Assembly: GCA_977862235.1 (NCBI GenBank)
Contig: OZ374563.1
Location: 868,001-932,000, forward strand
Direction of reading: 5' to 3'
DNA: 64,000 nt
Source of the DNA: Dudresnaya verticillata
Lineage: Eukaryota
Part shown: in pieces, positions 4,834-33,712 of the stretch
Layout: every line of letters begins with the position of its first letter
Position numbering within the stretch: position 1 is the stretch's first letter
Translations under genes and position numbers: made by a program
The notes under the pieces: generated by a model
What the model saw: the letters and a program-made list of their open reading frames with translations, nothing else
The model's database searches: none
What the model was told of the DNA's origin: nothing

Positions 4834-4850
4834 CGGCCCCCTTCTTAAAA
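4834..4850 (-). promoter_or_regulatory. Polypurine tract of B (TTTTAAGAAGGGGGCCG on -)
   Basis: Purine run abutting the 3' LTR; an 8-bp-stem hairpin ACTGAGCG-ACCG-CGCTCAGT lies next to it (4850-4869). Confidence 0.75.
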
Positions 4851-8720: not shown

Positions 8721-8928
8721 CATCTATCCAAATGTTTCCAAACATCTATCCAAACCTGGAGCTTCTGCTCCTCTATCCAGTTTGAATTTCCGGTTCATCT
8801 ATTCCCGCATCTATCCAAGGTTTCCAACCTGCTTTGCATCTATCCATTTTCTTGAACTTCCAGTTCAGCTGTTCCACATCTATCCAAACATCTATCCAAG
8901 GTTTCCAACCTTCTTTTTTATCTATACA
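8721..8928. repeat. Degenerate short-repeat array of CATCTATCCA (about 9 copies) interleaved with TTTCCAA
   Basis: Copies at about 8721, 8743, 8770, 8797, 8808, 8837, 8877, 8889, 8919. Confidence 0.8.
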
Positions 8929-9146
8929 TTTCCAATTTTCCAACGGGGTCCATATCCTTCAGATAAACTGATATACATGGGCATAGCCATTGCTATCCCG
9001 TGGATCGGTTCGGCGATCCGCAATCGGACGTTATCTTCGTTTTCCTTATAAGGCTTCTGCCTAGCGTAGAATTACACACGTAAGCGTGCCGCGAGGTAGC
9101 ACCGAATCATGACGCTTGAGTTACCATCAGATTGGTCGACCAGTGG

Positions 9147-12100
9147 TTATTCCGAGAAGGGAATCCTCTTCGAACGGTGATACCGTTTGATTAGATTCGC
9201 TGGGAGGTGTTCTCGCGGTTCCCAGGTGTCCTGTGATGCAGGGCACTGGTACCAGCGCACCTTGCACATTTTCGACTCGGAGTCGTAGTCGACCAATTTG
9301 TCATAAACATGCTCCCGTGGCGGGGCTTTCTTGAAGCGTGAAAACTTACGACGCGGGGTCGTCCCATCTGCATTAGGGGAGATCAGCTCTCCATGGGCTT
9401 GAGGAGAGCTTAGGCCCTGTGCGACCGTTGGCCCGGCATCATTCAGGCCAGGCGGTATGATAACCTCATCGCGAGGGGGCACGGTGGTAGAAACCGGGCC
9501 AGCACCACTATCGATATCCTCGATCACTTCCTGCGGAGGGGCGACAGTCTGCGCATTTGCGTATTCCGCGCCCGCTTCCAGCGGCTCCTCTCTTATAATG
9601 TTCGGCGATGGTGCGGCGCCTGGAGCATTGGTGTCTATTGACTCAAGAGTTGGTCCTGCTAGTTCCACATATCCAGGAGTAGCCTCCACGATGGGTGGGG
9701 CTAGCCCTAGAGCTCCAAGTTCTTCTTCCGGTGACGGGGCCAGAGTGACACGGTCCAGAGAGACTGATTCCCTTTCGCCATTCCTTTCCAACACGACAGT
9801 GTGTGTTCCTCTCTCGAGGATCTTGTATGGGCCAAGAGCCTTTGGAAACAACTTTCCTTCCCGTGCCACGCCTTTGGCATCTTTCATTTTCGTCTCTCTC
9901 GAGGAATACCCAGTTACCCGGGCCTAACTTCTGATTAGTCAGACGCATACGATTGTTGAAGTTGACTTCATATCGCTGTTGTGCCATGCGTAGACGTGGT
10001 AACGCTGTGTCCATCAGCTTCTCGAGTCGCGCGGTCAGCCGCTTCTTGACATTAACCGCTGGCACGTTCGCAACGTCTACCGTCTCTGCTTTCTCCATTA
10101 GGAGTGAAGTCGGCGGGTTGGATAGAACCAAGTCAACGGGAGCAAGGCCCGTCGCACGATGAACGGTCGTGTTGTATGCGTACTTCAGAGCAGACGTGAA
10201 TTCATACCAATCTTTTTGGTCTTCAGCAATGAAATGCCTCAGCCCTGCCAACAAGGTACGATTAAACCTTTCGGTTTTTCCGTTCGTCTGCGGATGATAA
10301 GTCGATGTAAACAGATACCGAATCTTGAGAATGCCGCAGACGGCTATGAAGAACTTAGACGCAAACTGCGAACCATTGTCCGACAGGACATAACGGGGAG
10401 GCCCGTAGGTGTATATCCAATGTTCACAGAACGCTTTCGCCACAGTATAAGCCGTTACCGTTTTCAATGGTATCGCTCGAGTGAGCTTTGAGAAGCGGTC
10501 CGTCATCACGAGCAGATATTCGTTGCCCTTGCTCGATCGAGGTAGCGGTCCTAGGATATCAATCCCCACGAACTCCAACGGCATAGTAGCCGGAAACAAC
10601 TTCATATGAGAAGCGTGTTGTCGTAGTTGAACACGTTCCTGTGCACATTTCACACAGTTTCGAACTGTTGCATATACTGCGAGAGCCATGCCAGGCCAGA
10701 ATACTTGTCGGCGCAAGTTATGATACATCCTTGTCCCACCGGGGTGACCGGCCATCTCCGGGTAGTGCGCGAGATGTAGGACCCGTTCTTGAAGGACTCT
10801 ATGTATCACTACCTGTAGTGTCTTGTCTATATAAGACCGTCGGACTATCAATCCTCGTTCATCTTCCAGATAGCAGCCTGGCCTTCCGGATTCAATGGCG
10901 AGTTTGATACCCATATAGAATTGATCGGTTCGCTGAGAGCGAAGAATTTCCTCCACGGTGAGCAGAGAAAGACTCTTTTCGTCCACTTCTTTCTCAGCCA
11001 CGTTGGCTATTAGTTGTTCATCCTCGAGTAACAACTCGACAGAGTCGTCCTCGGGTTCCACCTCCCAGACCTCCAAAGGTCGGGACGGGGTATCCGTTCG
11101 CGAATCTCTTCCATCCGAAAGGTCACGAAGGTCAGACCGATCACTGTCAGCGATTACAAAGCAAGGAATCTCCAGATCTGGTTCCCAGCTGGTAAAACCA
11201 TAAGTAGGTAATCGAGAGACGGCATCAGCTATCTGATTCTTCTTTCCCTTACGGTATTGAACCGTGAAGTCGTATTCGAGGAGTCGCAAGCGCCAACGTG
11301 CTAGTCGTCCGGATGCATCCGTCATACTCATCATCCATTTGAGCGCCTGATGGTCGGTGTACAAGTCAAAATGCGACCTTCCTAAATATGGTCTAAGCAT
11401 TTGCGTCGCCCAGACCACCGCGAGGCATTCCTTCTCGCCGACGGAGTAATCCCGTTCCGCCTGAGTCAAGCCTCGGCTCCAAAACCCGATAGGGTGGCGT
11501 GTTCCGTCTGGTTCCATTTGCATAAGGGCACACCCTATCTGATAGTCACAAGCGTCGGTGTCCACCGATAGAGGTCTATCTTCTTTCGGAAGTCGGAGAA
11601 TCGGTGGCGCTGTTAGCGCCTTTTTCAGTAACTCGAACGCTTCGCGCTGCTTTTCATCAAACGGAGGTAGTTCGAATCCCACATCCTTCTGAAGAAGTCT
11701 ATTAAGCGGTGATGCAACTCGTGCGAAGTTCGGCACAAAGCGTCTGTAGACGTTACACAACCCGATGAACGATTGTAGTTGAGTCTGAGTCTTAGGTTCT
11801 TTGAAGCCTTCGATGGCTTGGGTATTCTTCGTAGCTACTTCCAGTAGTCCAGGCCTGATCACGTGGCCAAGGTAATCCACACTCTTCGTGAAGAAGTTGC
11901 ACTTCTTGAGCTTGAGCGATACTCCCGCTTCTTTCAATACTGAGAGTATTTCTTGAACATGACCTAAGTGTTCGTCGACACTCTTTGAGAAGATTATGAT
12001 ATCATCCAAGTAGACGAGACAGGATTTCCATCGGTAACCCGATAATAGGATATCAACGGTTCTCTGAAAGGTCGCCAGTGCGTTGCACAATCCGAATGGC

Positions 12101-13730
12101 ATTCGGCAGAACTGGAAACAAAACGCATGACAGGTAAACGCTGTTTTGGCCTTATCTTCCGCTGCTACGGGTATTTGCCAGTAGCCCGAATTACAATTGA
12201 GAGTTGTAAAGTACTGGGCGTCGCCCAATGAGTCTAAGCACTCATCCATTCGAGGTAGAGGATATGAATCCTTAATTTTGATCGCATTCAGTTTCCTGTA
12301 ATCGACATAGAAACGGAGAGATCCATCTGGCTTCTTAACCAGTACTACTGGGCCTGCAAACTCCGAGCGCGCAGGCTCTATGACTCCTTCCTTGAGCATC
12401 TTATCGACTTCGTCTTGTTCCGCTTGTCGCGCTTTCGGTCCTGACCGATATGGTTGGGCAAATACGGGTTTGGAACCGTCAGTAAGCTCGATGCGATGCT
12501 CTGTGACTTTGATGGTCCCGAGCTTTCCGCTCCACATGTCAGCGAACGGTCATAGCATTTTGCGGACGCGACGTCTGTCAGACGCAGAGAGGTGTTCCAG
12601 TGTCAGGTCGTCGACTGTTAGGTTTTCGGTAGCGGTTTTAACGCCTGGCTTCGAGTCGGCAACGCCGAGAGCAGCAGCTAGTCCTGCCCCCTACATCGAA
12701 GGATGTTTCTGACTTAGGACTCGAGTCTTTCGACGTGGGGACTGGGGTGTCAGGGACATTGTCGATGGAAACCGAATAGACCGGCGTGGCCGTAGGAGCT
12801 GGGATGGCTCGGCCAATTACTGGTTCTTGTTGAGTCGCTGTAAGCGGGATGAAAAGTTGGCGATCTTTTCGCGGAAAAGAACGTTCTCTTGAAGCGTGAC
12901 GATTCCGTTCGTGACGACCACTTGTTGACGGTCATACAGCCGTTGAAAAGAATCCAGGAAGTGAATTCCTTTAGCCGCACACGTGACGGCGACCCAGGTT
13001 TCCGAACCGGGTTTCAAATTAGTAGTTAGGGCAACTCTGACGAGTCGCGAGTTAGGTAGAGGAGGTACCTCCATAGGTTCTCCAGAGCTTTCAGCTCGCG
13101 GGATTCCGCAGCGGCGGCGTAGGATCGGGTGCACCGAGCCGTCTCGAAGGACGACGTGTTGCTTGCGCACTCGTAACCCGTCGACGTGGGTATCGATATA
13201 GGTACAACCCAAAATCATATCCACGGCTAAAGCCTTGACTACGAAGAACGGTTGACGAACCGTATAGGTCCCAATCCTGACGACCAGGGAGATCATCCCC
13301 AAGTTAGTTAGTCGGTGGCTCGATGCTGAGGTTAAGTTAACGATCGAACGGTTCGATGAAATCTTCTTTCTGTCTTCCAAAGATAGCACATCTGCTCTGA
13401 TGAGGTTAGGGCCCGCGCCCGTGTCCAGTACTGAGAGGACTTGAGTTAAATGTTCAACAGAGGTCCCAACGGACGCGACAACTTTATAGTTGTATCGCGA
13501 GAGAGAGCAGATTGGGTCCTTAACATACTCATGATACTTAGACCCGGGGGTAAGCCCACGGGGCGTGCTAATATCTTCTTTGGAAGAAGAGGCGGAAGTT
13601 TCGGTGACACCGATCGGTCGGTTGAGGAAGCGCTTAGGAAGTCACATTCCTCCGAACGATCGGGGGGTTCCGATATGACTGATACGACCGGAGTCGCCCA
13701 GTAAACCGAAACCGGTTCCCCCCTAGCTAG
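9147..13730 (-). pseudogene. pol: Element B pol: protease-RT-RNase H-integrase-chromodomain, with frameshifts
   Basis: VLDTGAGPN protease (~13430); RT YLDD; RNase H DTDACDY...EKECLAVVW; integrase HHCC and DILGP...DRFSK...SDNGSQF...TERFNRT; chromodomain VYDKLVDY..CKVRWY...DTWEP in ORF 9887-9147. First RT catalytic Asp reads N (TTLNCNSG vs TTLDCNSG in C). Confidence 0.92.
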
Positions 13731-16440
13731 TTTTTCGGCCTACTAGCAGGAGACCGCGGTAGCGGTGGAGGTGGCGGAAGGGTTCGGGACCCTGGTCTTG
13801 GCGAGTGTGGCGCCGTCGGTTGCTGTCGCGGCGCGTCCACTGGGTGGTTCAACCCTCCTTGAAATTGGACATGGGTATTTCTACCGGGGGCCGGCCCCAA
13901 ATTTTGGGGAGGCCCTCTCGATGGCCCTGCTCCACGTTCTGACGATGCATAATCGTGATGCTCCGTGCGGGTGTTCCCGTTTGCAAATTCGGGCAGGCGC
14001 CCGATGGTGGCTAACCATGCCTTCTGTTCGCGGGACAGTTCGTAAAACTGCTGGCGTTTTAAAGCTTCAAATGACGGTTCATCCGTACGAGACAAATAGG
14101 GGCAATTAGGCTTTTTATGACCTACGCCAGGACACTCAAAGCGGATGTCGTTTGGCATGTCCTCGACAGTCACCCATCCCGGACGTTGAGTCCTCGTAGG
14201 TTGTGCCCATGCAGGTAGCCTGTTATTGTAGTTCTGAAGAACGGCGTCGACTTCTCCGTAGTACGGCCGGTCGCTTGGCACACCCGACCCCGTGTCTGAT
14301 TGGGTTACTGTAGAGGGTGGCGCTTCGCTATCAATGGCTGCTACGACAGCGTCTTCACTGTCCGCGTCAGAGCTAGTGCTCTTTGAGGTGTCCGAATCCG
14401 AGGACCGCTGAGTGCTATTTTGACGAATGAGGAGGGCGCGTCCTGACTTGTGAGTCCTCACCCGAGCCAGGGTTTTGTGAGATAGCGCTGAGCTCGCTTT
14501 CCGAAGACGTCCGCCACCCGCTAGGGCGCGGTGTGAATCTCCTTGCGCTGTCGCCAGCTCCACATAATCCGCCAATCGCACAGAGCGAGGATCCAAAGCC
14601 GACGTGCTCAAGAGTGGTTTGACCGCTGGTAGTAATCCACGTATAAAACGAGTTATCAAGTCCTGTTCGGAGTAAACTCCAGCGACCTTTCGCGCCTTGT
14701 TTTGCAGACGTCTAGAAAACGAAACTTCATCCTCGGCCGACTCTTGAGTCATCATATCCATTTCTGAAGAAATCTTCTCGATGTATACATCCTTGGCGTA
14801 GGTACGCAGAAGATAATTGATGGCTTCCGGCCATTCGTTGAATCCGCCGTTATCGTCTCCGGCTGCATCAAAGTTCGCCTCGAACATGTCCTTTGCATCC
14901 TTTTCAAGGAACTTGGGTATGACCAGGATGGCCGCACCTTCACTCACTTGAGCTTGATCAAGCTTTCGCTTTAAGGTGGCTAGAAAGCCAATAATAGCAA
15001 CAGGGTCACTCCCATCGAATCTTCGACTCCTCATCACAGATTTAATCCGTTTAATCTTCTTCGACGTGGCTTCGGTCAACTCGGATCCTCGATATGAATC
15101 GACGTTCAGTAACCGATATCTCCTGTATGAAAGGACCTGGGTAAAAGCAGGGTTTCGCGGAGTTAACTCCTTGATTCCGGCTCGTCGGGGTCCTCGCCAG
15201 GAACTCCAAGAAGGTCTGGAGAGGCCTCTAGACGTCGGTTCGTCCTCATCCGATTGCATCGGGGTATGATGCACGCGGCTTTGACGTTGTTCGTCCAACC
15301 TACGGCTAGAGAGCCGGTCTTGTCGGGAGTCCTTGGGATTGCGGCATGCGTTTGATCCGTGAGCTGTCCGGCAATCACACCGGCGGTGTTCAGACCTCCC
15401 ACGACCAAAGTCGTCGTTCCCGGACTCAACATCCGAGTTTCGTCTCGGAGATGTCCTGCGACGGTCCCTCGTACCGCGGGGCACAGGGGAGCGTCGCCGC
15501 TCGACCTCGGGGATTAAATCCCTCTCGTGGCTAAGTCGCCGCATCCTTGCTTCCAGCAATGACACCTTCCGCTTTCTGCATCAACCTCTTGTCTTAAGAG
15601 CTCGATCGCTCTGTCTTTTTCCACACACCTTGTGTCGTCTACGTTTCTACGAACGTCTTCTATAGCCATTACGGCTTCCTCTCGAGTGAGGTCGGTAACC
15701 TTGGTAAGCGTATGGAGATTTCCATGGACGGCGTCCAACTGGTCGCCCAGTGAATCAACCTGTGCTTGCAGAGTTTCGACCCTTTCTTCTTCCAATCCTC
15801 TTGAAAGAGGACCTTGTTGGAATCGAGATACGATCTCTTGTTGACACTTAGCCAACAGGCGGTCGTCACGGCGCGCCGACGCCTCGTCGAAATATCTCTT
15901 CACCTTTGAAAAGGTATCATCGGCTTGGCTTTCCAGGAGCGCTACAACGCTCGTCGTTAATGACCGTTCGATTCCCAATTCGACCAGGCGCCCTATTTCA
16001 CGTTCCGTGAAGCAGCGCGCACCCGACGAATTGTAATTCGTTCTTGGCGGCGGCCCCACGTCCGGGGTCGCCGAGTTTTCTTCTTCTAGGGCACGTCCAC
16101 CCTCGGCTTGTAGACTGGCTAAAGCCATGGATGGCGGCATCGTTTCAGGGTTCGAACCCAAATTCTCCCCGTTGTCAGCGGGGAGATCTCCGACGGTTCG
16201 AACCGTAGTTTCTCCTTCCGGGACCAGATACACACCTGGCCCCGGGACTTCTTCTCCAGCCGGGGCGCCTGTCATTCTTAGCGGACGTTCCGGCTCATCC
16301 ATTTCCGGATTTCTTATAAGGGCGGTTGAAACCGCGCAGGTGCGAGCCCCAATCGTCCTTACGGATGCAAGACTGCCAGACCGGCCAGCTCCTCGGCTCG
16401 TGATCCCGGGCCGGGTAGTGTCGCCATTAGATGTTGGCAT
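13727..16440 (-). pseudogene. gag: Element B gag, split by a frameshift near 15514-15565
   Basis: ORFs 16440-15514 and 15565-13727; IKELTP.NP.F..VLSYRRYRL and FDGSDP motifs shared with A/C gag; degenerate knuckle RFECPGVGHKKPNC. Confidence 0.85.
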
Positions 16441-16824
16441 CTTCTTGGAATTTTCGGCTCTGCAGACGAGGCAACGGGGACTTCTTCCCAGGCTTCTCGA
16501 CGGTTCGGAACCGTAGCGTTACACGTGTTTTCTCAGGATGCACGGAAAACCTGTTGAAGTAGCTCAACCCGGGCGTCAGTCCGACGTTGAAAGGTACTTC
16601 TATGGACGGTCAAAAACCGTAAACGTAGTTTGCTTGCTCACAAGATTTGACGTAACTCCGGAGCTTGAAATAAAGCGTAGAAACCGTCGACAATTAGACG
16701 ACTAGGGTTTTACCCTTCGAGAGGAAGAATTCTTGAAACTTCAACGGACTAACCGTCCTGTCTTGAGCGTCTTGATTCGACCCGTCGGGGGTAAGGTAGT
16801 AAAAGGGTCAACCCAGAGAACTTG

Positions 16825-16842
16825 TTCTAGGTCGGGAGACCA
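16825..16842 (-). promoter_or_regulatory. Primer-binding site of B (TGGTCTCCCGACCTAGAA)
   Basis: Lies 1 nt inside the 5' LTR; same 18-mer as A and C. Confidence 0.82.
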
Positions 16843-16843
16843 C

Positions 16844-17482
16844 TGTAGTAGAATGGCTTTCAAGCAAGAGTAGACGGCCACACAGCACGACAGTTGTCCT
16901 GAAAGCGTGATCCCACTCGCGTGGTTGGTAGCTCCAAATGGGGTGGTAGAGACTTGAGAGGGCGGCAAGCCCTGCAAAAGAGGGGGAAAAGGGAAGGCGA
17001 ACCGTACTGCTTAGAGCAGTCGTCGTAGGTAGCACGGCTTGTAAACGCCTAACGGGGGTTGTAGCGGTGATACCGTGAGAGTCCAACAAAGGGGAAAAAC
17101 CCAAGGCATACACCGCTGCTCGTTTAGTGCGGGGCCCCTGCTACTCAGGGGCCTAATAAATACGGCGGGAGCCGAAAAGGTACTACCCGCTCAGTTAGAG
17201 CTATAATGCTAACAGTGAGCTAATACTGTACACTAACAGTTACACTAGCGATTAAAAATAGGAATGAGCGGTCATACCGCTTCCGTACGTACGGCGCCAT
17301 TGTAAGGCGCCACGCCCAAAATAGACGTGCCATCATGGCGCGTATCCACCACTCAGCGCGCATAGTGCTCACGTAGTTAATTGTCCAATGGCGAGCAGCC
17401 ATCTCACTCCTGTATCCCACGCCTTACAGGCGTCGCGTGTACACGTGGCTCCTTACAGCGCCCCAGCGCTCGTTATAACACA
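16844..17482 (-). repeat. Element B 5' LTR (639 bp)
   Basis: Direct repeat of 4196-4833. Confidence 0.93.
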
Positions 17483-17975
17483 CGGCGGCAGGCGCGGTGC
17501 GCGGGAACTCAGGACGCGTGTCGCGTCGTCGAGTGTCTGACACGTCGTCGTCGCCATGCAGCCGCGCGCGCGGGAGCTCAGGAGTAGCTTACAGGCGCAT
17601 GCGTGTAGCATTGCGGGTGATCCGGATTCGGATCCAGATCCCTGCCACCATTGCTGGCGCGCGGCCCTTACAGGCGCGCCCCTTACATCACTGTGGATCC
17701 CGATGCCGGATCCCGATGTCCCATCCAGATCCGATCCGGATCCGGGCCAAGCTTACAGGCGTGCGCCTTGCGCCTGGCCGATCCGGATCGTGCATCTGGA
17801 TCTGGCCGTACAGTGGGCGCGTGCGCCGCGCCGCGCGGGGTAACGGCGGCCGTATGCCCGTGGGCCAATCGTCCACGACGTGTTCGCGCGCCAACGGCGG
17901 TCGACGTGCCGTCGGTAGACGTTGGCATATAATACGCTCACAGCGAAAAAGGGGCAGCCCTCCCCTTGCACCACA
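17483..17975 (-). repeat. Element A 5' LTR, 5' portion (U3)
   Basis: Same terminus as the C LTR (TGTGGTGCAAGGGGAGG), GATCCGGATC-rich; rejoins 3838-4195 when B is removed. Confidence 0.85.
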
Positions 17976-20336: not shown

Positions 20337-21232
20337 TGTGGTGCAAGGGGAGGCGAGCCCTTTTTCGCTGAAAGCGGTCGGACTAAATACGTCGACCGAC
20401 GGAGAAACCGCCACCGGCGCTCACCACCGCCGTTGGCGCGCGAACACGTCATCAACGGCTTGCTGAGGCGCGCGCGCGCACTGCGCGCCGCGCGCCACGC
20501 GGGCACCGTACAGTGCTGGGCCAACCTGGTGCCCCGGGGCACTGTAGCACGGATCCGGATGCGATCCGGATCCGGCATCCAGATTGGCTATCTGGATCGC
20601 CTAAGCTGTAAGCTATGCGTCTGTAAGGCTGCGGGTATCAGCATTGCTGGCCCGATCCGGATGGGATCAGGATCGGACAAGTACCAGATTAGATCTAAGG
20701 CGCACGCTCTACAGTGCGCGCGCATGCGCGGCTGTAAGACAAACGCGTCCACGTGTACGTGTAAGCACCCACACAGGGGATTGTGCGGCGGTCTATCAGA
20801 CGCGCGGCTGCATGCGACGCGTGATCTGTCAGACGCGCCTCGGGACGACACGTGTCCCGAGTTCCCGCGCTACACGCACGCCGCCGCGCCGCCGTACTAT
20901 ACTTAGGTAAGCCGTCCCAGACGTCACAGTAAACGCCCGGGCAAGCCGGCCTTGGTCCAGACTTCCCCGTTCCGCATGCGCGCATTCTACCGCTGCCTAC
21001 GGCTAAGCGTCTACCTCCCGTGCTTCCACGTCTACCATCGTCCTTGACGTGTTCCCTTTCTCTTTCCCTTTTCCTTCCTTTCCGCCTCGGGCGTTTACAG
21101 TCCGCCCAAAGCGTGCCCCTTTGCTCTACCACCAAGTCGCCCACGGCGGGTCTACCTACCGCCGAGGGCGCAGCTACCCACCGAGCCCCGAACTGCTCGG
21201 CGGTCCATCGTCTACAGACGTTTTGCACCACA
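20337..21232 (+). repeat. Element C 5' LTR
   Basis: Three substitutions seen versus 32817-33712. Confidence 0.96.
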
Positions 21233-21234
21233 TC

Positions 21235-21252
21235 TGGTCTCCCGACCTAGAA
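21235..21252 (+). promoter_or_regulatory. Primer-binding site of C (TGGTCTCCCGACCTAGAA)
   Basis: 2 nt after the LTR end; identical in A and B. Confidence 0.85.
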
Positions 21253-21358
21253 TTGTGCTACGTTTCAACGAGTTTCTCCGTCGCGCGACGTCCGACTCTC
21301 CGTCTCTGACGTTTGTCGCTAATCGTCCACGACGTTCAAGCAACTCTACGATTGTATC

Positions 21359-23922
21359 ATGGCCTCACGACCGCCGCCGTCGCGAGGCCCAAGTTCAAGA
21401 AGACCGTCTTCGACGCCTGGGAGTGTACCCGCGTCTGAACGGTCGCTACAGCGGATGACGACGAGGTCTGGGCGCCTCGTGAGCCCCGAGATCGCGTCGG
21501 CGTTCCCGACGCTACCCCCGGACCACGGCCACGCAGGCTCCCACGTGTCGCTCAACGGAGGAGAGTTACCTCCCCCGCCGACGCGCCACAACCCCGTCGT
21601 CGTCCGCACCTCCGTCCCCGAGGGATCGGCCCTCCGCACCTACCGCTCCTATGTTGACTCGGCTGATACAGTACAAGCCGAGCAACAGGACGTCGTAGAC
21701 GGAACACAAGCCGACATCGTCGCGGGACAACCGGAACTTCCGGATCAACCAACCAACCACGTCAACGACGACCAAGGGCGCTCCGCGGAGCGCGACGTCG
21801 CTCACGAACCATTGACACAAGGGGCATGTTGCCCCACTCCCCACGGCAGTGCCGGTTGTTCGCCGGCTCAGCCGAATTCGCCAAGTCAAAGGGCGCAAGG
21901 GACGCCCGACCGGTCAAACCGCGAAAGCCAACCGCCAACGGCGTCCCCCTCGGCCGTCCGCGTGAGTAACTTAACGATACCACGCGAACGGATCCGAGAG
22001 GTGTGCGTCTTAGAGGACGATGCGATGCTCGCTCGATTCGCCGGGTTGCTGGACGACAGTGTCGGAGGAATCGCAAGTCGTCTACAGATGTTGGAAGAGG
22101 ATTGGAACGGCGCCCTACAAGGGCTTCGATCCGACCTCGACCGTCTATTGACGAACCAAAACGCCCAAGGCGAAGGTACACAACCACCGCCGGCAGTAAC
22201 GGTTCATTCGCACTCCGAGCTTAGCTCACGCGAACGCTTTCAGCGACTTGCGACCCGCTTAGAGCGTCTCGAAACCGCCAAGTAGCGCAGTGGTCCGCCG
22301 TCAGGTGACAAGAGCTCAGGCGAGGATCGTCACAGACGTAAGGACCGGAAGAAACGCCGTCGGAAGCTGCGTCAGAGACGGAAGAAGAACCGTCGTCGAC
22401 GTGGGGACTCATCCTCGTCCTCTTCGGACTCGTCAAGTGACGGAGAGTCATCGGACTCTTCGTCTGAAGACGACGACTTCCCAACTCTCGGCAGTGCCGC
22501 AAGACCTCGCGGAAAGCGGTTCAAGGGGTTGAAGGAGCTACCCCCCTCCAACCCCCTTTTTGATCAGCTATTATCGTACCGGACTTACCGTCTCAAAGAC
22601 GTAGGACAAAAACGCTCAGAGCGCGATACGGGCAAGGTCAAGGACCACATTAAGCGACTGGAGCTGACCATGAAGGACGCCGCCTTCAACGGCAGCGACC
22701 CCGTCATGGTCATCGAGTTCCTGACGCGTTACGCGGATGAAGCCGATACGCTGGAGATGAGCGAAGCCCAAGCGTTCGTCGCGCTGCCGTACTTCCTGCG
22801 AGGTACGGCAGCCACGCAATTCCGCTCCGTCAAGTCGACGTCTTCTCGCCATCGCGGTGGGGTGTCTTCGTATCCGGAGGCGGTACAGTACCTCCTCCGT
22901 ACGTATGCTACGCCAGTGGCGATCAGGGACGCTGTCCTCGCCCTACGGTCAACTGCCCAAAAGCAAGGCGAGGACGAGACGACCTATTGGATGCGGCTAG
23001 CCGGTGCGTGTATTCGTTGCGGTAACGTATATCCCGATTGGGAAAAGATGACGCTGTACATCGACGGGTTAGACCCGTCGATCAGGTCCCTGGTCGCTCG
23101 CTTTCGAGAAGAAACGCCAAGGGCGGAGTTCTCATTTGAGCGGCTGGTCCACTTCGCACAGGACGAAGGGGATGCCAACCGCGCACGACACGGCAGAGCC
23201 GGTTCCGCGTCAGCACGACGTGATCTACTGACACCGGCTCAAGCCGTACGCACCCCGCGATCCGCCATCGGCGATGCCCGAGGGGTACTGCGTCCACAGA
23301 CGAGAGGCGCCAAGCTTGGAGCGCGCGCTATGATAGCGGAGTCCTCCATCGAGTTCCGAGACGTTAGTCGACCTGTCGATGACATGGAAACACACGCCGA
23401 AGGCGATTTGTACTTGGCAGACGAGCAAGCGTCGGTGCCAACCTCAGCTCTACCGACGGACAGCTACGTCGATGACGAGGACGAAAGGGATATGGACCCT
23501 GCTCTCGCCTTTGGGCGCTCGGTCGTACCAGCGCCACGCGTCCCTATTCCGAGTATGCTCCTCACGTCCACCGGGCAAGGCCCGGATGGCAGGACAGAGG
23601 TCCGCCCCGTCAAGACGCGCGTCGGCAGCTGGTATGCCACCAATGCTACGCCCGCGGACACATCGCGCCGGACTGCTTCCTCCGCATGAGCGACTTCATG
23701 AAGGTTATTACCAACTATGAAGGACTAACGGAAGCCGAGAAGGCTGGTGTCCCCGCTGATGCGTATGTACGTTGCAAGGAACGCGCGACCCGCGATGCTG
23801 CTCGCCGTGCTGCACGACCACAATCGCCACGAGGCGGACCCATGCCGCACGCGACAGAACGTCATCCGACGATGATCAATCGCTATGAAGCGCCACAACC
23901 ACCGCCACAGGCGAAAAACTAA
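21359..23922 (+). pseudogene. gag: Element C gag (internal TAG 22283-22285, frameshift near 23543)
   Basis: ORFs 21359-22285, 22529-23689, 23686-23922; CHQCYARGHIAPDC knuckle in the shifted frame; ends GCG AAA AAC TAA. Confidence 0.88.
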
Positions 23923-26900
23923 CTCGGGCACCAACTCCTGACACTGGGGTGTCGCACCGCGAAGAGAGGCCTAGGCCTCGGGTGCTAACACGGAAGGAGG
24001 GCCCGAAGTTAGTTTCAGATGACGCCAACGGGCGGATAGAGTCGTCACAGACGTCATTAAAACGCCCATGGCGAAGGTACCAGCCCCCCGGGCGCAAGGG
24101 CAGTTGTTCGTGATGGCCAAGAGGAATTATAAGGTGTACGCCGATTTGGGCGCAACCGTTAGTACCTTGGCACGTAAACGCACTGTCCTCGACACGGGGG
24201 CTGGTCCGAATTTCATTCGCATTGAAGACATTCCGCTGGAAGCGCGATCGCGCATCGTGACAAAGAGCCTCCCCGTCATAGCCGACGCCAACAATAAGGC
24301 GATCCAGACAAGAGGCACCATCGACCTGATCGTTCGTCTAGGACGGAGAGTCGTCAAGTTGGAACTGATCGTTTGCGAACGACTCGCTGCGCCGGTGATA
24401 CTCGGCTGCGACTTTTGCGACCGGTTCGTCGAAACAATATATCCGCGAAGTCGCGAGGTTGAATTGGATGACGGGACTCGTGTCCCTATAACGCGCCGCC
24501 CGCTGCGCCGACCCCCGTCTTATCCTCCGTTACCAACGGAACAGGAATACGGCAACGCCGAAGGGAGGACGTCGCCCAAGATCCGAGTCGCCGAGCGCGC
24601 GATCATCCCGCCTAAGGCGCAGCAATGGGTATCGGTGACCACCGAGCGCGCCGGTATCATCACAACTCAACCGTTCGGAACGCTGTACGACAAACAAGGT
24701 CTGGCCGTTACGAACGGGATTGCTCAAGTGGAGCCGCTAAAAGCGTTTCGCATTCTGGTTGCCAACTTCTCTCCCCGCCCGCAGGCGCTGGCCAAGGGCC
24801 AAGTCATCGCCACGGCGTTACCACATCCGACAGCAGTGTTCCCCAGTCACGTAATTCTAGCCGATGTTTTGGGCCTCACGGAGGAACAAGCCGAGGAAGA
24901 GAAGGCAAACCAAGATTTCCGTTTTCAAACGAATGATAACACTGCGGCACAGCCGGATACTTTCACGAAGTCTATCGAGGCAACCACTGCCAAACCTCCG
25001 TCAGTAGACGATTTGGACCTGGGACATCTCCCCGCCGAGCATCAAGGTCGGCTCAAGGAGATGTTACGCAAGTATTCGTCTATGTGGGACGGTTCGTTGG
25101 GAGAAATCTCAACCACGGAGCACTACATCGACTTGCTTCCCAGCTCTAGACCGATATCGTCCCCGCCCTACCGAGCGGGGCCGAAGCAGAGACAACTCGC
25201 TCAAGCGGAAGTGGACCGCATGCTGCGTCAAGGGGTTACCGAACCCGCACAATCGCCTTGGGCGTCACCAGTGGTCTTCGCCCCCAAGAAGGACGGGACC
25301 CTCCGCTTTTGCGTAGACTAACGTCGTTTAAACGCAGTAACCATACGGGACACGTACCCGCTGCCGCGTATCGACGAATGCATCGACAGCCTAGGGGAAG
25401 CAAACGTCTTCACCACCCTAGACTGTAACAGTGGGTACTGGCAGGTGCCGATCAATCCGCGAGACCGCGATAAGACTGCGTTCACGTGCAACGCCGGACT
25501 GTTCCGCTATAAGCGTATGCCATTCGGCCTCACGAACGCGCCCGCTATGTTTCAACGAACGTTGGAAATACTGCTCGCTGGTTACAAATAGCGTTCGTGC
25601 CTCGTCTACCTCGATGACGTAATAATCTTCTCCAGCGACATCGACAGTCACTTCCGTCATGTTGACGAGATCCTTTCGACATTGCACCGCGCCGGGGTGA
25701 CTCTGAAGTTGACAAAGTGTGACTTCTTCACCCCGACCGTCAACTACTTAGGACACGTCATACGTCCAGGACGATTAGAAGTTGACCGAACTGTCACTGC
25801 CGCGCTACGCGAATCCAAGCATCCACGGGATCAGAAGGAGCTACGGAGTTTCCTCGGTCTTTGTAACGTCTACAGACGGTTCGTCTCGCGATACGCGCAT
25901 GTCGCTGAACCCCTCAACAAGTTGCTGAGGAAGGAACAGGACTTCCGGTTACAACCGTTTGATGAGACACAAGCCAAAGCGTTCAGTACGCTCGTCGAGG
26001 CCGTGACTCATCCGCCTATACTGGCGCTACCACAGCAGGGTCTCCCCTATTCCGTCGACTGTGACGCCAGCGAGTATCAGGTCGGCTGCGCTCTCTTTCA
26101 AACGCAGCCCGACGGGGAACGTAAGCCACTCGGCTTCTTGTCCCGCTCGCTCACCGCTCCAGAGCGTAACTACTCGGTCTCCGAAAAGGAGTGCCTCGCA
26201 GTAGTATGGTCCGTCATGACGCTGAGACCTTACCTCCAGATGGAGTCGTTCACAATCCATACGGACCATTCGTCATTGAGGTGGCTGATGGAAATCAGCG
26301 ACCCCTCCGGACGGTTAATGCGGTGGCGCCTTCGCCTTTCCGAGTTCGACTTTGTCGTGAAGTACAAAAAGGGTACTTGAATACTCAGGCAGATTCCCTT
26401 TCGCGTCTACAGACGAAGGGAGAAACCGTCGAGCCTATTGACGATGATATACCGTGCTATCACGGAAGCTACGCCGAAGACGGCCATCAAACGTCACAAG
26501 ACGATCTGTCAGACGCCGAAGGCGAGGTCGACTTCGCCGAACGAGAGTTCGAAGCGTTCGACCAAGTGTTGATCAACAACACGCCACCGGCAGATGAGGT
26601 ACTCCTTCGTCAAGTGACGCATGAAGAGTTGGTACACGCCCAAGGCGACGATAGTTACTGTAACGATGTCAGGAAACGTCTTGATGACGGGATCACCTTA
26701 CCGTTCGCAACGGATGAACAGGGCCTGTTGGTCCGAACAGTGGAAGCCCGTCCGCAAGTGGTCGTACCCTCCGCGTTACGCGCTCGCTTACTCCACCTCC
26801 GGCACCACGCCAAGTTGGCAGGGCACCCAGGGGGGCGTAGGTTGTATCATACGCTTCGACGCGAATACTATTGGCCATCGATGCCAGTGGACTGCTATGC

Positions 26901-28638
26901 GACCGTCCGCAACTGCGTAACTTGCGCTAAGAATCGCGTATTGCTGCGAAAGAACACCAAGCAATTGAAGTTGTTCCCGGCAACCGAGCCTCTCGAATTC
27001 GTGTCGATCGACATCCTGGGCGAACTCATACGCACGAAGCGAGGAAACAAGTTCCTACTCGTCATTGTGGACCGCTTCTCGAAGCTGGTCCGGACGGTCC
27101 CACTGCGTAGTATTACGACATTGGAAATCGCTAAGGCGTTTGTACGACATTGGGTCTTCGTGTACGGTCCTCCCAAGAAACTGTTGTCCGACAACGGACC
27201 ACAGTTCGTGGCTAAGCTGTTTCAGGATATCTGTCGTTTTTTGGGGGTGGAGAACCTCTTCACCACGACGTACCATCCGCAATGAAATGGCCAGGTAGAA
27301 CGATTCAATCGAACTATCCTGGCCTCGCTGCGTCACTACGTTGCGGATCATCCGAGAGACTGGGACCTGTTCACGGATGCCTTGAAGTTCGCATACAACA
27401 CACAGTTGCATTCGTCAACGCATCTCGCTCCGTTTGAATTGGTGCTGTCTAAGCCACCACGGCCACTGTCGCTCGAAGCGGAACCGTCGCTCGAAAGCGT
27501 ACCCACCGCGGGGCAATGCTACACCAAGTGGCGAACCTGATTGGCCGCACTGATGGGAACCGCTAAAGCGTCATTAGAGAAAACTCAAGCACGTTACAAA
27601 CGAAACTTCGATACCCGATTAAGGAAATCGAAGGAATCCATCGCCATAGGCGACTTAGTATTCGTACGTAAGGAATACTTCGCCCGAGGCGGGAGCACGG
27701 ATCGCGCAGAGCGTAAGCACAAACTGGCGCCAGTGGCGGACGGACCGTATCGGGTAACTCACGTTGATAACGAGACAGTAACCGTCGACAAGGGACGTGA
27801 TGAGCGGGAACGTTTGTCCCGAGACCGCGTGGTCTGGGCGCCGACCCCACCGGGTCAGGCGGCCCCTCCAATCGTCGCACCCCCAGGTCCGCCTGAGGAG
27901 CAGGACGCAGTCGCCCCCACGTCACAAGACGAAGGGACGACTACCCCAAGCACGCCACCAGCGGAACCGGAGGGGAACGCAGAGACTTCGCATACTGCGA
28001 GAGATCCGCAAGAGCGTACGACCACAGCGTCACGCAGTCGTGGGTTGGCAGAGCTTTCGCCCTTCGCCGCCGATCCCGACAACCGCGCTTCGCAATCCGT
28101 CTCCAACGACGACAATACCCCAGGGGTTCGCACCCGTTTGGAACACGTCGCTACGGCACTGCCGAATGATAACAATGAATCAGCTGAAAGCGCGTCCGAT
28201 AACGACGACGTTAACCGTGCAAGCACGAAGCAAGGCGCTGCAAGCGATGGACTCGTCTCAAGACGCAACAACCCACTTACCGCTGATCGAGCGTCCGAGG
28301 CCCAAGGCCAACGCCTTCGGCGATCAACTCGTCGAGTACGCTTCGCCGAACCGGAACAAACGCCCATAACGCAACGAGACGAACCGCCAAAGGCGCTGCA
28401 AGGACACCGGTCCAAGCCGAACGCTGTGAGCGGGAAAGAATACGTTATCGAACGCATCGAGTCGCACGCCTACGCGGATGATGGTGAGATGCTCTACAGC
28501 GTTAAGTGGTTTGGATACCCCGCTTCAGCGAACACCTGGGAGCCAGTCTCCAGTTTGCCGCGCTCCCACGTCACACGATACCACCGTCGCAAACGTATGC
28601 AGCTGCCGCCAAACGTCGACGACGCGCAACGCGGCTAA
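23919..28638 (+). pseudogene. pol: Element C pol: protease-RT-RNase H-integrase-chromodomain, with multiple stops
   Basis: DTGAG protease; LDCNSGYWQ and YLDD RT; DCDASEY RNase H; HHCC plus DILG/DRFSK/SDNGPQF integrase; chromodomain EYVIERIESH...YSVKWFGYPASANTWEP. Stops at 25319, 25589, 27283, 27538; frameshifts near 24087 and 26375. Confidence 0.93.
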
Positions 28639-29910
28639 CCCTAGTCCGGAAATACCGCTGGAAACGAATGGACGGACGATCGAGCCCACGTGCTCGCCCT
28701 ACGATCGCCAACGGCGCGGAAGCTCAACCCATGCCCTGTGGACGCGGTCGCCGGAGCGACAACGCCAACCACGCGTGCACGCCATGGACGAACGCGGACG
28801 CAAGTCGTTGCGTCATAGACAGCCTCTCGCACGCCACCTCGCAGCAGCCCCCATACGGAACCTCTGGATGGGTGCGCTGTTGACAGTGGATCCAGATCGC
28901 AAATCGAGATCCGCCGCTGGCGCCCCTCGGGTAATGAGAGGCAGTAGCGGGTCAAATTTTAATTTCCAAACACGGCAGCTCGATATCGCCCCCCCAACGC
29001 AATAATGCCAAGTGGCTGAGCAGGTGCTACGAGCCCCAGCGACGACAGGCGCAAAGTGGCAGCGCACGACAACCGTCTCCGACGTCGAGACGTGCCTCGC
29101 CCCACGGCCAAGTCCCAGGGACCGCCACCCTGCCGGCCACGGTCTCGCGCGCAAGACCCGTCGAACGTCTCCGACGTAACTCGCCGAGAAGGGGCGCACC
29201 GACAAACCCACCCCCGAAGGGGGGGGGAAGGTGGTCGAAGACGCAGTTGCTGCGGGTTCCGTGCACGAAGCGCCAACAAATCGCCAACGACTCCGCCGCT
29301 GCCTGCAGCCGCCGCGCAGTCGCGCGAGCGCGACAAACAACTCTACCCTACCCACAACGAGGAACGTCGAAGACGAAAGGGGCGGCAACGCCGAAGCGTC
29401 AAAACCTACCTCAGCGCCTTCGCGACCGTCGTCGAGGACGCCAACAAACCACGCCCAAGGCGCTGTGCAACACATGAACTACAAAAACGCTAAGTAAGCG
29501 GAAATACGCCAACGCCGCGCGCCTGACGCGCGTGAAACACGAAGAACAACGCTACTACAGCGGACCTTACTGGGCAAACAAAGCCAAGTGCCAACGCACG
29601 GCTAAGGCCAATGGCACCAAAACGCCAACGCTACTGTAGCGGGCAACCAAGAACACGACGCAAAGTCGAAAGTGGATCACAAGGTTACACCCTAAGGCAA
29701 ACGCGAAACGCGACACACAAAGACGCTGACAATGGCCGAAGTTTACTGGGCTAAAAACAAATGGGGACAACCCCTCGCCCTAGCGATCGACCACTACGGC
29801 TACATTAATCGTCAAAGACGAAGGGGAATACCCCGCTCAGCGGTCCCGCAAGGGAGCAGAAGGGCAACACAATACGCACCTCGCGTCCGCTATCCGTTCC
29901 TGAAACGACA

Positions 29911-32214
29911 TCAAGACTCCTTCGTCGCAGACGAATTGGCTGGCACGTCCCCAGCGCCTTCGGCGGACTCACGCAACGCCTCTTCGTAGAGGTCGTCCTC
30001 CGTCGTTGACGGCACACTCACGGCAGGAGCCGGGGCGGACCGCAAAGGCCTTGCCACCGCAACTGCCGGAGTGGCTGCAACAGGCGCCGCAGGCGAAGTG
30101 GGGGACTCATCAACCGCCTTGGGCGTCGTCGCTACAATATCCGCCAAAGGCGATGAAGCAATAACACCCGCCACAGGCGCAGAGCTCAAACCATCGTTCG
30201 CCTTAGGCGCGGACACAGCCCCATCCGCTTTAAGCGTAGTCAACGACTCGTCTACCGCCTTTGGCGTCAGTTCAGAAACCGCCTTGATTGGCGTCGCTTC
30301 TTCACTCGCCTTCGGCGCTGTTAACCCAACACCCGTCAATGACGCAGGAGCCCCTGGCCCCTTTGGTACCGTCAACGACGCTATAGCGGCATTCGCTTCG
30401 CTCGCCACAGGCGGTACAGTCATACTCACGTCTTGAGAAGCCGGACCATTCGCCTTAGGCGACGAAGGCTTCTCTGCCACACCGTCCTTCGATGCAGAAC
30501 CTACGACATTAGTCGATTTCGGCGCGGGCCCACCCTGAGGTGGGACCGCAGCCGACAAAGCTTGGCTCATCCACTCAGTGGGTGAGCCGCTCAGACCGCT
30601 AGTAGCGACGCCTGACGCCTGCAATAATGCAAGCACGGTGCGGCGCTGCTCTTCGGTCCAAACCGGCACCGAAGCTGGACCCCCAGAACCGTCTGCGACG
30701 TTTGATGCTTCGCCTTGAGGCATTACGATCGGCGGAGCCGGCTCAAGTATTGGCGTCGCCATAACGGCATCGCCATCATCGTCAGCGACGGGAGCCGCAA
30801 GGTCCAGAGGAGCAACAGATGGCAGGCCAGCTGGCACTCCACCGCCACCGACAGCGCCTCCGGGCAAAGCCGAAGACGCGGGCGCAGGCTCGGCAGTCGA
30901 CTCAACCGCCATAGGCGTAGCAATGTCCGTCCCAGACGGGTTCTCCGGTCCGCCATCGGCGTTAAACGCATCCTCCTCGGCCATTAAGGCGCTCAAATGC
31001 GGAGGAAAATCACCGACAAAGTCGCAGCTCTTACGCAAACCACGCGGGTGATTACCCGGGGTGAAGCGGTCCGTTTTGCGATGGCGCTCCGCAACGTTCT
31101 TCGTCGTACGACGCTTAGTCCACGGGTTATAATGGACCCAATCGCCACAGGCGGAGTGAGTCCGACTCATCGCGAATCGCGGACGGTTCGCCTTACGGCG
31201 GTTGTTCGCATACGGCACCATTGCCGGGTCGTTCCAGTCGATCTCATCCGCCACAGCGCGCAGGTTCCAGAACTCCTCGGCGTTCCGGGACCCGCCAAAT
31301 ATTTCGACTAAGTCGAGGCTGCCCAGCTGCGCCACCACACGCGGGGGTAAGTGGTACATACGGAAGGTGTCATACACCTCCCATAACCACGCATACGCCA
31401 CATTGGCGACCCAGTCCGTGTAAAACACGATCCAGTATCTGGAATATGGGTCGGTCATCAGCTCGGAACCGAGATACCTGACACACGGAGGAAGCTCTAC
31501 GGAGAAACCCTCGCATATCTTAAACTCGCGCCACACTGGCGGTACCTTCACAAAACAAAACGGCAACTTACTACGCTCAATGCGGTCAACCTGCATGTCC
31601 TGGTAAGGCACGAATGCGCCCTTTCGGCGACGCATCTCGCACTCCCACCGGATACAACGCTCCCAAAAGAACGTACCCGTACGATGCAAGTAACGAAAAT
31701 CCGCTTTCAAGCGTACGCCTAAGAGGTAGGCCTCTCACAACACACGAGGCTCAATCGACACGCTCACATGTTTGAGCGACAGCGTCCCAAGACGAGCACC
31801 ATATTCGGCTTCGCCGGCTGTGCGGTATTGTCCCGCATCATAATTGAACAGGGGCGGCGTTAACGTCGACCCCGGATAACGCGTGAAGCGACAATACACG
31901 TCTGAGACGAACTGCGGGTGGACGTCCGCACGCGACTGTCCCGCTCGCACCCAAAGCCATTCCGCAGGAACGGCACAGCGTAACTTCCATTCCAACGTCC
32001 AGACGACGCCGAGGCGCAAGCCCCCCGGCAAGAAACCGCTAGTAGCGTAATGAGCAACCAATTCTTCCTCGCGCAAGGCCTCCTGGTCGAACCAGGGGGC
32101 CCGCGCGAAGAAGTGCGCGTGATCGCGAGGGTTCTTTCCGACGAAGTCGACCGGCGAAGCGTACACCGGCGCAGCCGAAGGTGCTGCCACCTGCATGCCA
32201 TTGAACATCGGCAT
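29911..32214 (-). pseudogene. Element C antisense accessory ORF (~767 codons, one in-frame TGA at 31737-31735); homologue of B 5526-7811
   Basis: ORFs 32214-31735 and 31710-29911 share a frame and are separated by one TGA (probably from TGG); Trp/Tyr-rich N-half aligns with B; Ala/Pro/Ser-rich tail. Confidence 0.82.
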
Positions 32215-32216
32215 GA

Positions 32217-32600
32217 CGTCAACGACGAGGATGTGTTAACGCCAAAGGCGACGGTTGTACAAACGTCACAGACGACTCGTGTCCTGCGCCACTGGCGAAA
32301 GCTTCAAGAAGCGTGCGTCGAAGACGATTACTGTTGTAACGCCTTAGGCGAGGAAACGAAACCCACGTCGACGACGTTCATCTGCTGCGTCAATGGCGAT
32401 GCCACAAGCACACGACGTCGAAGACGACTACTGTTGCGACGCCTTAGGCGAGAGAAGGAAACCCGCGTCAACGACGTTCGACTGCTGCGCCAATGGCGAT
32501 GCCGGAGGCAAACGACGTCGATGACGATTAAGTTGCAACGCCCCAGGCAAGGGATATACGATAGACGTCAACGACGGAGCTCGTTGCCACAGGCGGTAAT
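32217..32600. repeat. ~100-bp period tandem repeat (about 4 degenerate units) just upstream of the antisense ORF start
   Basis: Units begin CGTC(G/A)A.GACGA at 32217, 32316, 32416, 32516; each holds about two CGCC-N3-GGCG palindromes or one-mismatch variants. Confidence 0.8.
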
Positions 32601-32816
32601 GTCGGGGCAGAGTACGCAGCCGCACGAGTACGCAAACGCAACAAGAGCGGAGTTCTTACGGCACAGCCGAGGTCGCAGTCGCACGCGGCGCACCAATACA
32701 ATACGCGAAGGCGCGGGGACTCGCTCGCAAGGCGCGGAAGTCGGCAGGGACGCAACGGCAGAACGCACGGCAGCAGGTTGAGGGTCGGGTCGTGTTCGCG
32801 TTTTGGAGGGGGATCG

Positions 32817-33712
32817 TGTGGTGCAAGGGGAGGCGAGCCCTTTTTCGCTGAAAGCGGTCGGACTAAATACGTCGACCGACGGAGAAACCGCCACCGGCGC
32901 TCACCACCGCCGTTGGCGCGCGAACACGTCATCAACGGCTTGCTGAGGCGCGCGCGCGCACTGCGCGCCGCGCGCCACGCGGGCACCGTACAGTGCTGGG
33001 CCAACCTGGCGCCCCGGGGCACTGTAGCACGGATCCGGATGCGATCTGGATCCGGCATCCAGATTGGCTATCTGGATCGCCTAAGCTGTAAGCTATGCGT
33101 CTGTAAGGCTGCGGGTATCAGCATTGCTGGCCCGATCCGGATGGGATCAGGATCGGACAAGTACCAGATTAGATCTAAGGCGCACGCTCTACAGTGCGCG
33201 CGCATGCGCGGCTGTAAGACAAACGCGTCCACGTGTACGTGTAAGCACCCACACAGGGGATTGTGCGGCGGTCTATCAGACGCGCGGCTGCATGCGACGC
33301 GTGATCTGTCAGACGCGCCTCGGGACGACACGTGTCCCGAGTTCCCGCGCTACACGCACGCCGCCGCGCCGCCGTACTATACTTAGGTAAGCCGTCCCAG
33401 ACGTCACAGTAAACGCCCGGACAAGCCGGCCTTGGTCCAGACTTCCCCGTTCCGCATGCGCGCATTCTACCGCTGCCTACGGCTAAGCGTCTACCTCCCG
33501 TGCTTCCACGTCTACCATCGTCCTTGACGTGTTCCCTTTCTCTTTCCCTTTTCCTTCCTTTCCGCCTCGGGCGTTTACAGTCCGCCCAAAGCGTGCCCCT
33601 TTGCTCTACCACCAAGTCGCCCACGGCGGGTCTACCTACCGCCGAGGGCGCAGCTACCCACCGAGCCCCGAACTGCTCGGCGGTCCATCGTCTACAGACG
33701 TTTTGCACCACA
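32817..33712 (+). repeat. Element C 3' LTR
   Basis: Direct repeat of 20337-21232, preceded by PPT GGAGGGGGA. Confidence 0.96.

What the first reader, a model, noticed from the sequence alone, without database searches (positions are those of the whole stretch)
20337..33712. CGCC-N3-GGCG palindrome occurs about 48 times in element C with strict 3-nt spacing
Manual count of exact copies. LTR: 20409, 20428, 21083, 21138, 21160 (again in the 3' LTR). gag: 21933, 22162, 22911, 23115, 23263, 23395, 23903. pol: 24063, 24609, 25254, 26514, 26637, 27642, 27681, 27728, 28312, 28385. Spacer: 28706, 28912, 29452. Antisense ORF: 13 copies from 29955 to 31143. Leader: 32240, 32287, 32340, 32440, 32488. A simple estimate at ~60% GC gives about one. 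Spacings of 2, 4, 5 or 6 occur only a few times each. The motif falls in different reading frames (TPKA, SAEG, ADGG) and in non-coding DNA, so it is a nucleic-acid signal. It is essentially absent from B and rare in host DNA here.
Basis: seen in the sequence. Interest (0 to 1): 0.85.

Follow-up and report, generated by a model that had tools for sequence, protein, structure and literature searches.

The report
Mini-hairpin code in seaweed retrotransposon
A jumping gene of a red seaweed carries about 140 eleven-letter self-complementary words, scattered through all its genes and spaced by a rule, which are predicted to fold into tiny DNA hairpins and likely serve as docking sites for a protein, a signal written in shape rather than in a fixed sequence.

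Summary
The count is right: 48 CGCC-N3-GGCG in element C, against about 1 in shuffles. But it is one member of a class. C, a Ty3/Gypsy chromodomain retrotransposon of a red alga, holds 138 words CG-xy-NNN-y'x'-CG in 12.5 kb (expected 11). The inner bases vary but the two arms match each other; the mixed CGCC/CGTC arms occur 3 times. That rules out one fixed dimer site and points to a 4-bp stem with a triloop. Stems end at the CG, prefer a C-G closing pair and show no G-U wobble excess, which suits DNA better than RNA. Neighbours never start 11-17 nt apart and cluster at 18-24 nt. Arms change about half as often as other sites between two copies. Neighbour element B and 37 of 81 relatives are also rich in short hairpins, with other geometries; host DNA is not. 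Best reading (0.42): weakly selected DNA mini-hairpins read by a protein. Rivals are RNA packaging signals (0.25) and hairpins written by fold-back copying (0.2). The clade's antisense ORF encodes a conserved domain with no fold match; it is a candidate reader, untested.

The parts
20337..33712 (+). Element C: Ty3/Gypsy LTR retrotransposon with a chromodomain; 138 CG-xy-NNN-y'x'-CG words in 20337-32815 (one LTR counted), of which 43 are CGCC/GGCG
   Evidence: CTTTG on both sides
20337..21232 (+). 5' LTR, 896 bp, 10 class words; 3 differences from the 3' LTR
21235..21252 (+). Primer-binding site, the same word as in element B
   Evidence: reading as PBS from its position after the LTR
21323..24022 (+). 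gag region, broken by a stop and frameshift; 31 class words
   Evidence: no Pfam gag hit in C; labelled gag by position
24023..28638 (+). pol (protease, RT, RNase H, integrase, chromodomain) in several frames; 40 class words, fewest in RT-RNase H (5.1 per kb)
28639..29910 (.). Non-coding spacer, 11 class words
29911..32235 (-). Antisense ORF with one in-frame stop: a conserved domain of about 380 aa, then a low-complexity tail whose T/S/A-P-K-A repeats are spelled by the hairpin words; 32 class words
32236..32816 (.). Non-coding leader of the antisense ORF, densest in class words (13; 22 per kb), with a 100-nt tandem duplication
32817..33712 (+). 3' LTR
1..4195 (-). Element A: second copy of the C family (about 95% identical), 44 class words in 1-4143
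17483..17975 (-). Rest of A's 5' LTR, split off by the insertion of B
4196..17482 (-). Element B: related Gypsy element, rich in perfect stems with loops of 3-6 nt but without a fixed CG base; 0 CGCC words
5469..7811 (+). B's antisense ORF, homologous to C's (21% identity over 184 aa, E 3e-9)

Best explanation
Element C carries 138 dispersed self-complementary words with a fixed CG base and a spacing rule, which are predicted to fold as 4-bp DNA mini-hairpins and are likely bound by a protein with a footprint of about 20 nucleotides, so that weak selection likely keeps their density high. Shown: the count, the matching arms, the CG base, the unpaired flanks, the C-G closing pair, the absence of a wobble excess, the spacing rule and the slower change of arms.
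For: Arms co-vary: 138 of 279 CG-N7-CG words are self-complementary, against 10.8 expected (maximum 18 of 50 simulations); mixed CGCC/CGTC arms number 3. Closing-pair polarity: CGCC 43 against CGGG 0 (expected 1.33 and 0.28); C-G to G-C closing 188:57 in C, 20:23 in the host duplication. C:G closing is reported as more stable (PMC3201870, abstract and introduction). Not plain stability: equally stable stems without the CG base number 71 against 50 expected. Extension past the CG is depleted, 16 of 138 against 34, P 1e-4. DNA rather than RNA: G-U variants with the CG base are 11 against 8.9 on the sense strand; one-wobble stems are 0.99 of expectation in C; relative L058 has G-N-N-A tetraloops on both strands, 19 and 20 against 7.2 and 7.5, and 29 of the 39 are not GNRA. 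Spacing: start-to-start gaps of 11-17 nt 0 against 12.3 (0 of 2000 permutations), 18-24 nt 23 against 11.2 (P 0.0005); it holds without the repetitive tail and leader (0 against 6.8; 15 against 6.4), and neighbours mostly differ in arm class, 10 of 38 the same. For all 213 CG-based stems, linkers of 7-13 nt are 48 against 17.8; for 217 non-CG stems 14 against 17.5. Selection: arm columns differ at 9 of 412 between A and C, other columns at 175 of 3708 (P 0.016), unpaired look-alikes at 10 of 186 (P 0.046).
Against: No binding, folding or expression was measured. ViennaRNA's best fold of a 261-nt dense stretch pairs arms of different sites rather than the local triloops, as DNA and as RNA, so the hairpins need kinetics or a protein. 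No 10.5-bp phasing beyond the first peak. C's loops lack a clear GNA excess (18 against 13.8). The DNA-type loop signal comes from relatives, and fold-back mutation predicts it too (PMC8794818, passages). In a relative family, fourfold-degenerate sites in arms are not conserved (174 of 1075 against 191 of 1213), though those copies look like neutral decay. The antisense ORF is also kept in 10 hairpin-poor loci, so it is not tied to the signal. Only two copies of the C family were available.
Confidence: 0.42

Rival explanations
1. The words are dispersed RNA stem-loops on the genomic RNA, read cooperatively by Gag as packaging or assembly signals.
For: STNV uses dispersed degenerate stem-loops whose relative spacing matters, and two loops 10-12 nt apart are called assembly-competent (PMC5699041, passages). 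C's preferred linker is 7-13 nt. Loops are A-rich on the sense strand, 168 A and 90 T of 414. RNA is the element's long-lived single strand (general knowledge).
Against: G-U variants as stable in RNA as the observed classes are not enriched (3 against 4.9 in the bins below 0 kcal/mol), while weak Watson-Crick classes are. G-U to A-C among single changes is 51:62 in stems and 540:661 in controls. No UUCG or GNRA signature. STNV signals carry their motif in the loop; here the loop is free (51 different triplets).
Confidence: 0.25
2. The words are a mutational footprint: the element's reverse transcriptase folds the nascent DNA back and copies one arm from the other, with no function.
For: Explains strict Watson-Crick matching, confinement to these elements, lineage-specific geometry and DNA-type loops. 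Template switching can create and repair stems and is favoured at stable loops (PMC8794818, abstract and passages). Between two relative subfamilies, two-sided compensations are 33 of 940 stem pairs against 154 of 7406 control pairs.
Against: 0 two-sided changes among 52 sites in A against C, and arms change less, not more. 39 sites are shared; P 0.008 if about 45 ancestral sites survived at the neutral 0.70 (my assumptions). Copying does not obviously predict below-chance extension past the CG or an excess of pairs 18-24 nt apart.
Confidence: 0.2
3. The words are double-stranded sites for several homodimeric DNA-binding proteins, in the manner of VANC anti-silencing motifs.
For: Palindrome with strict spacer, unpaired flanks and AT-rich centre; the 20-23 nt peak equals two helical turns; the element encodes an accessory protein.
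Against: Needs at least seven homodimers that never mix; mixed arms are at chance level. No further helical phasing. VANC motifs are fixed words in non-coding tandem repeats (PMC5735166, passages); these lie in all genes.
Confidence: 0.07
4. The dyads serve host chromatin, for example as non-B DNA that favours centromere identity.
For: Dyad symmetries under 10 bp are enriched at many centromeres (PMC5889037, passages); the integrase has a chromodomain and the elements are nested.
Against: Host-type genes lie about 22 kb away; nothing here locates a centromere; it does not explain the CG base or the spacing.
Confidence: 0.04

Closest known systems
Ty3/Gypsy chromoviruses; LTR retrotransposons with an antisense ORF between pol and the 3' LTR (Grande, RIRE2, Retand; PMC7264820)
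   Same: Domain order, chromodomain, LTRs, 5-bp target duplication, antisense ORF of unknown function
   Different: The antisense protein matches no Pfam family (0 of 94 members) and no solved or viral fold; no dispersed hairpin signal appeared in the passages or listings that I saw
Dispersed packaging signals of ssRNA viruses (STNV; PMC5699041)
   Same: Many degenerate short stem-loops across coding sequence, with a spacing preference
   Different: Fixed part is the stem base, not the loop; no G-U tolerance; host element is a retrotransposon
VANC-VANDAL anti-silencing motifs (PMC5735166)
   Same: A transposon accumulates lineage-specific short signals and encodes an accessory protein
   Different: VANC motifs are fixed duplex words in non-coding tandem repeats; here arms co-vary, sites sit in genes and mostly arise independently
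DNA mini-hairpins of phage G4 origins and N4 promoters (PMC13037366) and the DGR target hairpin (PMC3240598)
   Same: Short DNA stems recognised by structure; stem sequence can vary in DGRs
   Different: Those are one or a few sites with conserved GNA or GRNA loops; here there are over 100 sites and free loops
HIP1 of cyanobacteria (PMC4390886)
   Same: Highly iterated GC-rich palindrome in genes and between them
   Different: HIP1 is one fixed word across a genome, linked to methyltransferases; this is a structural class confined to one element family
Template-switch mutation (PMC8794818)
   Same: Gives perfect short inverted repeats with DNA-stable loops
   Different: Described for host DNA replication; no CG base or spacing rule in the passages seen

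Membership tests
Ty3/Gypsy chromovirus | PR-RT-RH-IN order with C-terminal chromodomain | tested here: met
   Pfam RVP (weak), RVT_1, RT_RNaseH, Integrase_H2C2, rve, Chromo E 7e-10
Ty3/Gypsy chromovirus | LTRs TG..CA, target-site duplication, primer-binding site | tested here: met
   896-bp LTRs, CTTTG duplication; PBS-like word shared with B
Ty3/Gypsy chromovirus | Placement in a named chromovirus clade by RT tree | not tested
   Tree holds no named reference elements
dsDNA homodimer site | Half-sites combine freely | tested here: not met
   3 mixed CGCC/CGTC words against 43 and 36 matched
VANC-type motif | Fixed word in non-coding tandem repeats | tested here: not met
   97 class words in ORF pieces; neighbours mostly of different class
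VANC-type motif | Bound by an element protein that lifts silencing | not testable with these tools
   Needs binding and chromatin data
RNA packaging signals | Dispersed stem-loops with a spacing preference | tested here: met
RNA packaging signals | Recognition motif in the loop; RNA-type pairing | tested here: not met
   Loops free; no G-U excess
RNA packaging signals | Capsid protein binding drives assembly | not testable with these tools
   Needs experiment
Extra-stable GNA/GNNA DNA mini-hairpins | G-N-A or G-N-N-A loop closed by C-G | tested here: inconclusive
   C-G closing met; GNA 18 against 13.8 in C, 20 against 8.5 in B (4 or 5 from one local repeat), GNNA on both strands in L058
HIP1-like palindrome | One word, genome-wide | tested here: not met
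   Seven classes; 4 class words in the 13.2-kb host duplication
Template-switch footprint | Simultaneous two-sided changes between close copies | tested here: inconclusive
   0 of 52 sites in A against C; 1.7-fold excess between distant relative subfamilies
Rfam families | Match at gathering score | tested here: not met
   0 matches in 20337-33712

The most novel reading that the evidence does not exclude
A clade of algal Ty3/Gypsy elements writes a self-identity code into its whole genome as DNA mini-hairpins. Each lineage has its own geometry (in C: CG base, 4-bp stem, triloop, pairs about 10 nt apart), read by the clade's antisense-ORF protein, a domain with no known fold, to mark or shield its own cDNA. 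This would be a structure-based counterpart of the VANC system in a retrotransposon.
Probability: 0.15. Interest if true: 0.92.

Novelty: new variant of a known kind. Interest (0 to 1): 0.74.

Why it matters
LTR retrotransposons are thought to be recognised through a few end signals. Here about one base in eight lies in a structured word imposed on gag, pol and the accessory gene alike. Each of the three leading explanations would be new for these elements as far as my searches reach: a DNA-shape code, virus-style dispersed packaging signals, or a reverse transcriptase that writes hairpins. The rule is sharp enough for oligonucleotide tests. It also offers a first testable ligand for an antisense-ORF protein, a class whose function is reported as unknown (PMC7264820).

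Tried and rejected
No whole genome is held, so copy number and genome-wide background are unknown. No sequencing run was listed; that is no evidence. Word-indexed search with the antisense domain found nothing; the HMMER scan found 357 clusters. Viral contigs: 0 loci with C's integrase and 1 distant locus with alignment A1. Prokaryote assemblies: 7 distant loci, of which 4 were profiled and are hairpin-poor. CpG protection idea: one search suggested CpGs outside arms mutate fast (64 of 409), but one search showed the rate (58 of 389) is like other dinucleotides; rejected. Protein-motif origin: rejected by synonymous shuffles. Local duplication as the source: true for the tail and leader only. 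Helical phasing: none. Fold searches: Foldseek PDB and viral gave no E under 0.001, VIA best Z 2.2, Atlas no usable hit, PDB sequence search best E 0.14; this does not prove a new fold. Literature: six searches for a prior description were read as listings only, and none showed one; subscription papers and red-algal genome supplements were not seen. Earlier findings: nothing relevant.
Full report
Observation. Dinucleotide shuffles give 1.08 on average and at most 5 of 200. Synonymous shuffles give 3.6 against 29 observed. Thirteen more lie in 1-4143, a 95% identical copy of the same family.

Setting. C has 896-bp LTRs with 3 differences, a CTTTG duplication and protease, RT, RNase H, integrase and chromodomain matches. 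It is a recent but broken Ty3/Gypsy element. The best named hits of the neighbouring TIP41 gene are Gracilaria domingensis (57%) and Agarophyton chilense (55%), so the host is a multicellular red alga (inference). B, a related element, sits inside A's 5' LTR.

The real unit. Of 279 CG-N7-CG words in C with one LTR, 138 have complementary inner arms, and the 16 x 16 table is diagonal; third-order Markov simulations give 10.8. One-mismatch words are at background, 139 against 132. A protein that accepted both CGCC and CGTC half-sites in duplex DNA would accept mixed sites, and these number 3. The arms must match each other, which means pairing within one strand or copying of one arm from the other.

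Geometry. Stems stop at the CG: the next pair is complementary in 16 of 138 cases against 34 expected. Loops of 3 dominate (138 of 279), then 4 (49 of 165) and 5 (31 of 152). The closing pair is polar: CGCC 43, CGGG 0; C-G to G-C 188:57, against 20:23 in host DNA. C:G closing pairs are reported to stabilise certain DNA and RNA loops by about 2 kcal/mol (PMC3201870, abstract and introduction). Equally stable stems without the CG base are barely raised, 71 against 50, so stability alone is not the rule.

DNA or RNA. G-U versions with a CG base are 11 against 8.9 on the sense strand and 26 against 17.8 on the antisense strand. One-wobble 4-bp stems run at 0.86-1.21 of expectation in all 14 regions tested, while perfect stems reach 2-3 times in the rich ones. 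No UUCG or GNRA signature was seen. L058 has GNNA loops on both strands, mostly not GNRA; such loops are far more stable in DNA than in RNA (PMC13037366, passages and section 4). This favours DNA but does not prove it. C's own loops show no clear GNA excess, and predicted global folds do not keep the local triloops.

Spacing. Successive sites never start 11-17 nt apart (0 against 12.3; 0 of 2000 permutations) and cluster at 18-24 nt (23 against 11.2). Both hold after removing the repetitive tail and leader. The rule holds for all CG-based stems (linker 7-13 nt: 48 against 17.8; 0-6 nt: 5 against 19.5), but not for non-CG stems or unpaired look-alikes, and there is no 10.5-bp phasing. B shows the 7-13 nt excess too (72 against 46.5). 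This is what a bound protein's footprint would leave (inference).

Selection or mutation. Between A and C, 39 sites are shared (47 in C, 44 in A, 52 in all), with no two-sided change. Arm columns differ at 2.2% against 4.7% elsewhere (P 0.016). A simple equilibrium (my arithmetic) in which only the perfect state is favoured, by ln 13 = 2.6 in scaled units, predicts no halo of near-misses and arm differences near 0.4 of neutral; 0.47 is observed. A pure fold-back bias predicts arm differences at or above neutral. The data are two copies only. In a relative family, arms are not conserved at fourfold sites, and about 30% of stem pairs are broken between its two subfamilies: density persists, positions do not.

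Relatives. The metagenome scan read 7 of 64 parts and kept 80 of 600 confirmed loci; one more came from viral contigs. In 37 of these 81, perfect stems with loops of 3 or 4 reach at least twice expectation; 27 of the 37 belong to one family. Whole sister groups lack the trait. None matches C's CG-triloop level (40 against 3.2 in pol; the next highest ratios include B 13 against 1.6, L003 11 against 1.6, and small counts such as 6 against 0.5 in L025). C's nearest relatives in the FastTree of 108 RT-RNase H rows are proteins for which no DNA could be fetched (rows under 200 aligned residues dropped, supports not shown).

Candidate reader. The antisense ORFs of B and C are homologous and belong to a family of 357 clusters with no Pfam match. 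The model is confident (pLDDT 95) and matches no fold. Profile hits occur in 25 of 81 loci, 10 of them hairpin-poor, so a link to the hairpins is only a guess.

Comparison and verdict. The element is a known kind. The signal works most like dispersed packaging signals (PMC5699041, passages) or VANC motifs (PMC5735166, passages), but fails a defining feature of each. It differs from HIP1 (PMC4390886, abstract), DGR hairpins (PMC3240598, passages) and centromeric dyads (PMC5889037, passages). PMC9861306 (passages) gave only general notes on methylation in red algae. Six literature searches, read as listings, showed no prior description. Odds: DNA hairpins read by a protein 0.42, RNA packaging signals 0.25, fold-back mutation 0.2, duplex sites 0.07, centromeric role 0.04. 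The pattern is solid; the mechanism is inferred. Interest 0.74.

Noticed in passing
window 29911-32235 (-) and 5469-7811 (+): Antisense-ORF family: 357 clusters at 50% identity, model pLDDT 95 and pTM 0.93, no Pfam or fold match; profile hits in 25 of 81 related loci, mostly antisense and downstream of pol.
   Followed up: partly
L002/L005 family (27 loci), L017, L048, L058, L060: Relatives with 2-5.6 times the expected number of perfect short stems, often tetraloops; sister groups (L007, L021, L027) have none.
   Followed up: partly
L058: G-N-N-A tetraloops enriched on both strands, mostly not GNRA, as expected for DNA hairpins.
   Followed up: partly
window 8680-8920: Local repeats in B's spacer (ATCTATCC words and GGTT-TCC-AACC hairpins).
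   Followed up: no
window 17483-17975 against 20337-20890: The U3 part of the LTR differs by about 25-30% between A and C, whereas gag differs by about 5%.
   Followed up: partly
window 17753-19401 (-): Fragments of another retroelement (integrase core; Copia-like by recall), AT-rich and without a clear hairpin excess.
   Followed up: no
window 34151-41035 and 47373-54246: Near-identical (99%) duplication with an unannotated 511-aa ORF; a LINE-type RT ORF (42430-45438) lies between the copies.
   Followed up: no
window 55857-62489: Host genes: RNA methyltransferase, TIP41 (best named hit Gracilaria domingensis, 57%) and an 898-aa ORF without a Pfam hit that holds 7 class words against 2.1 expected in very GC-rich DNA.
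   Followed up: partly
window 9933-9974 and 33731-33772: 42-nt inverted similarity (79%) between B's pol and the DNA just right of C.
   Followed up: no
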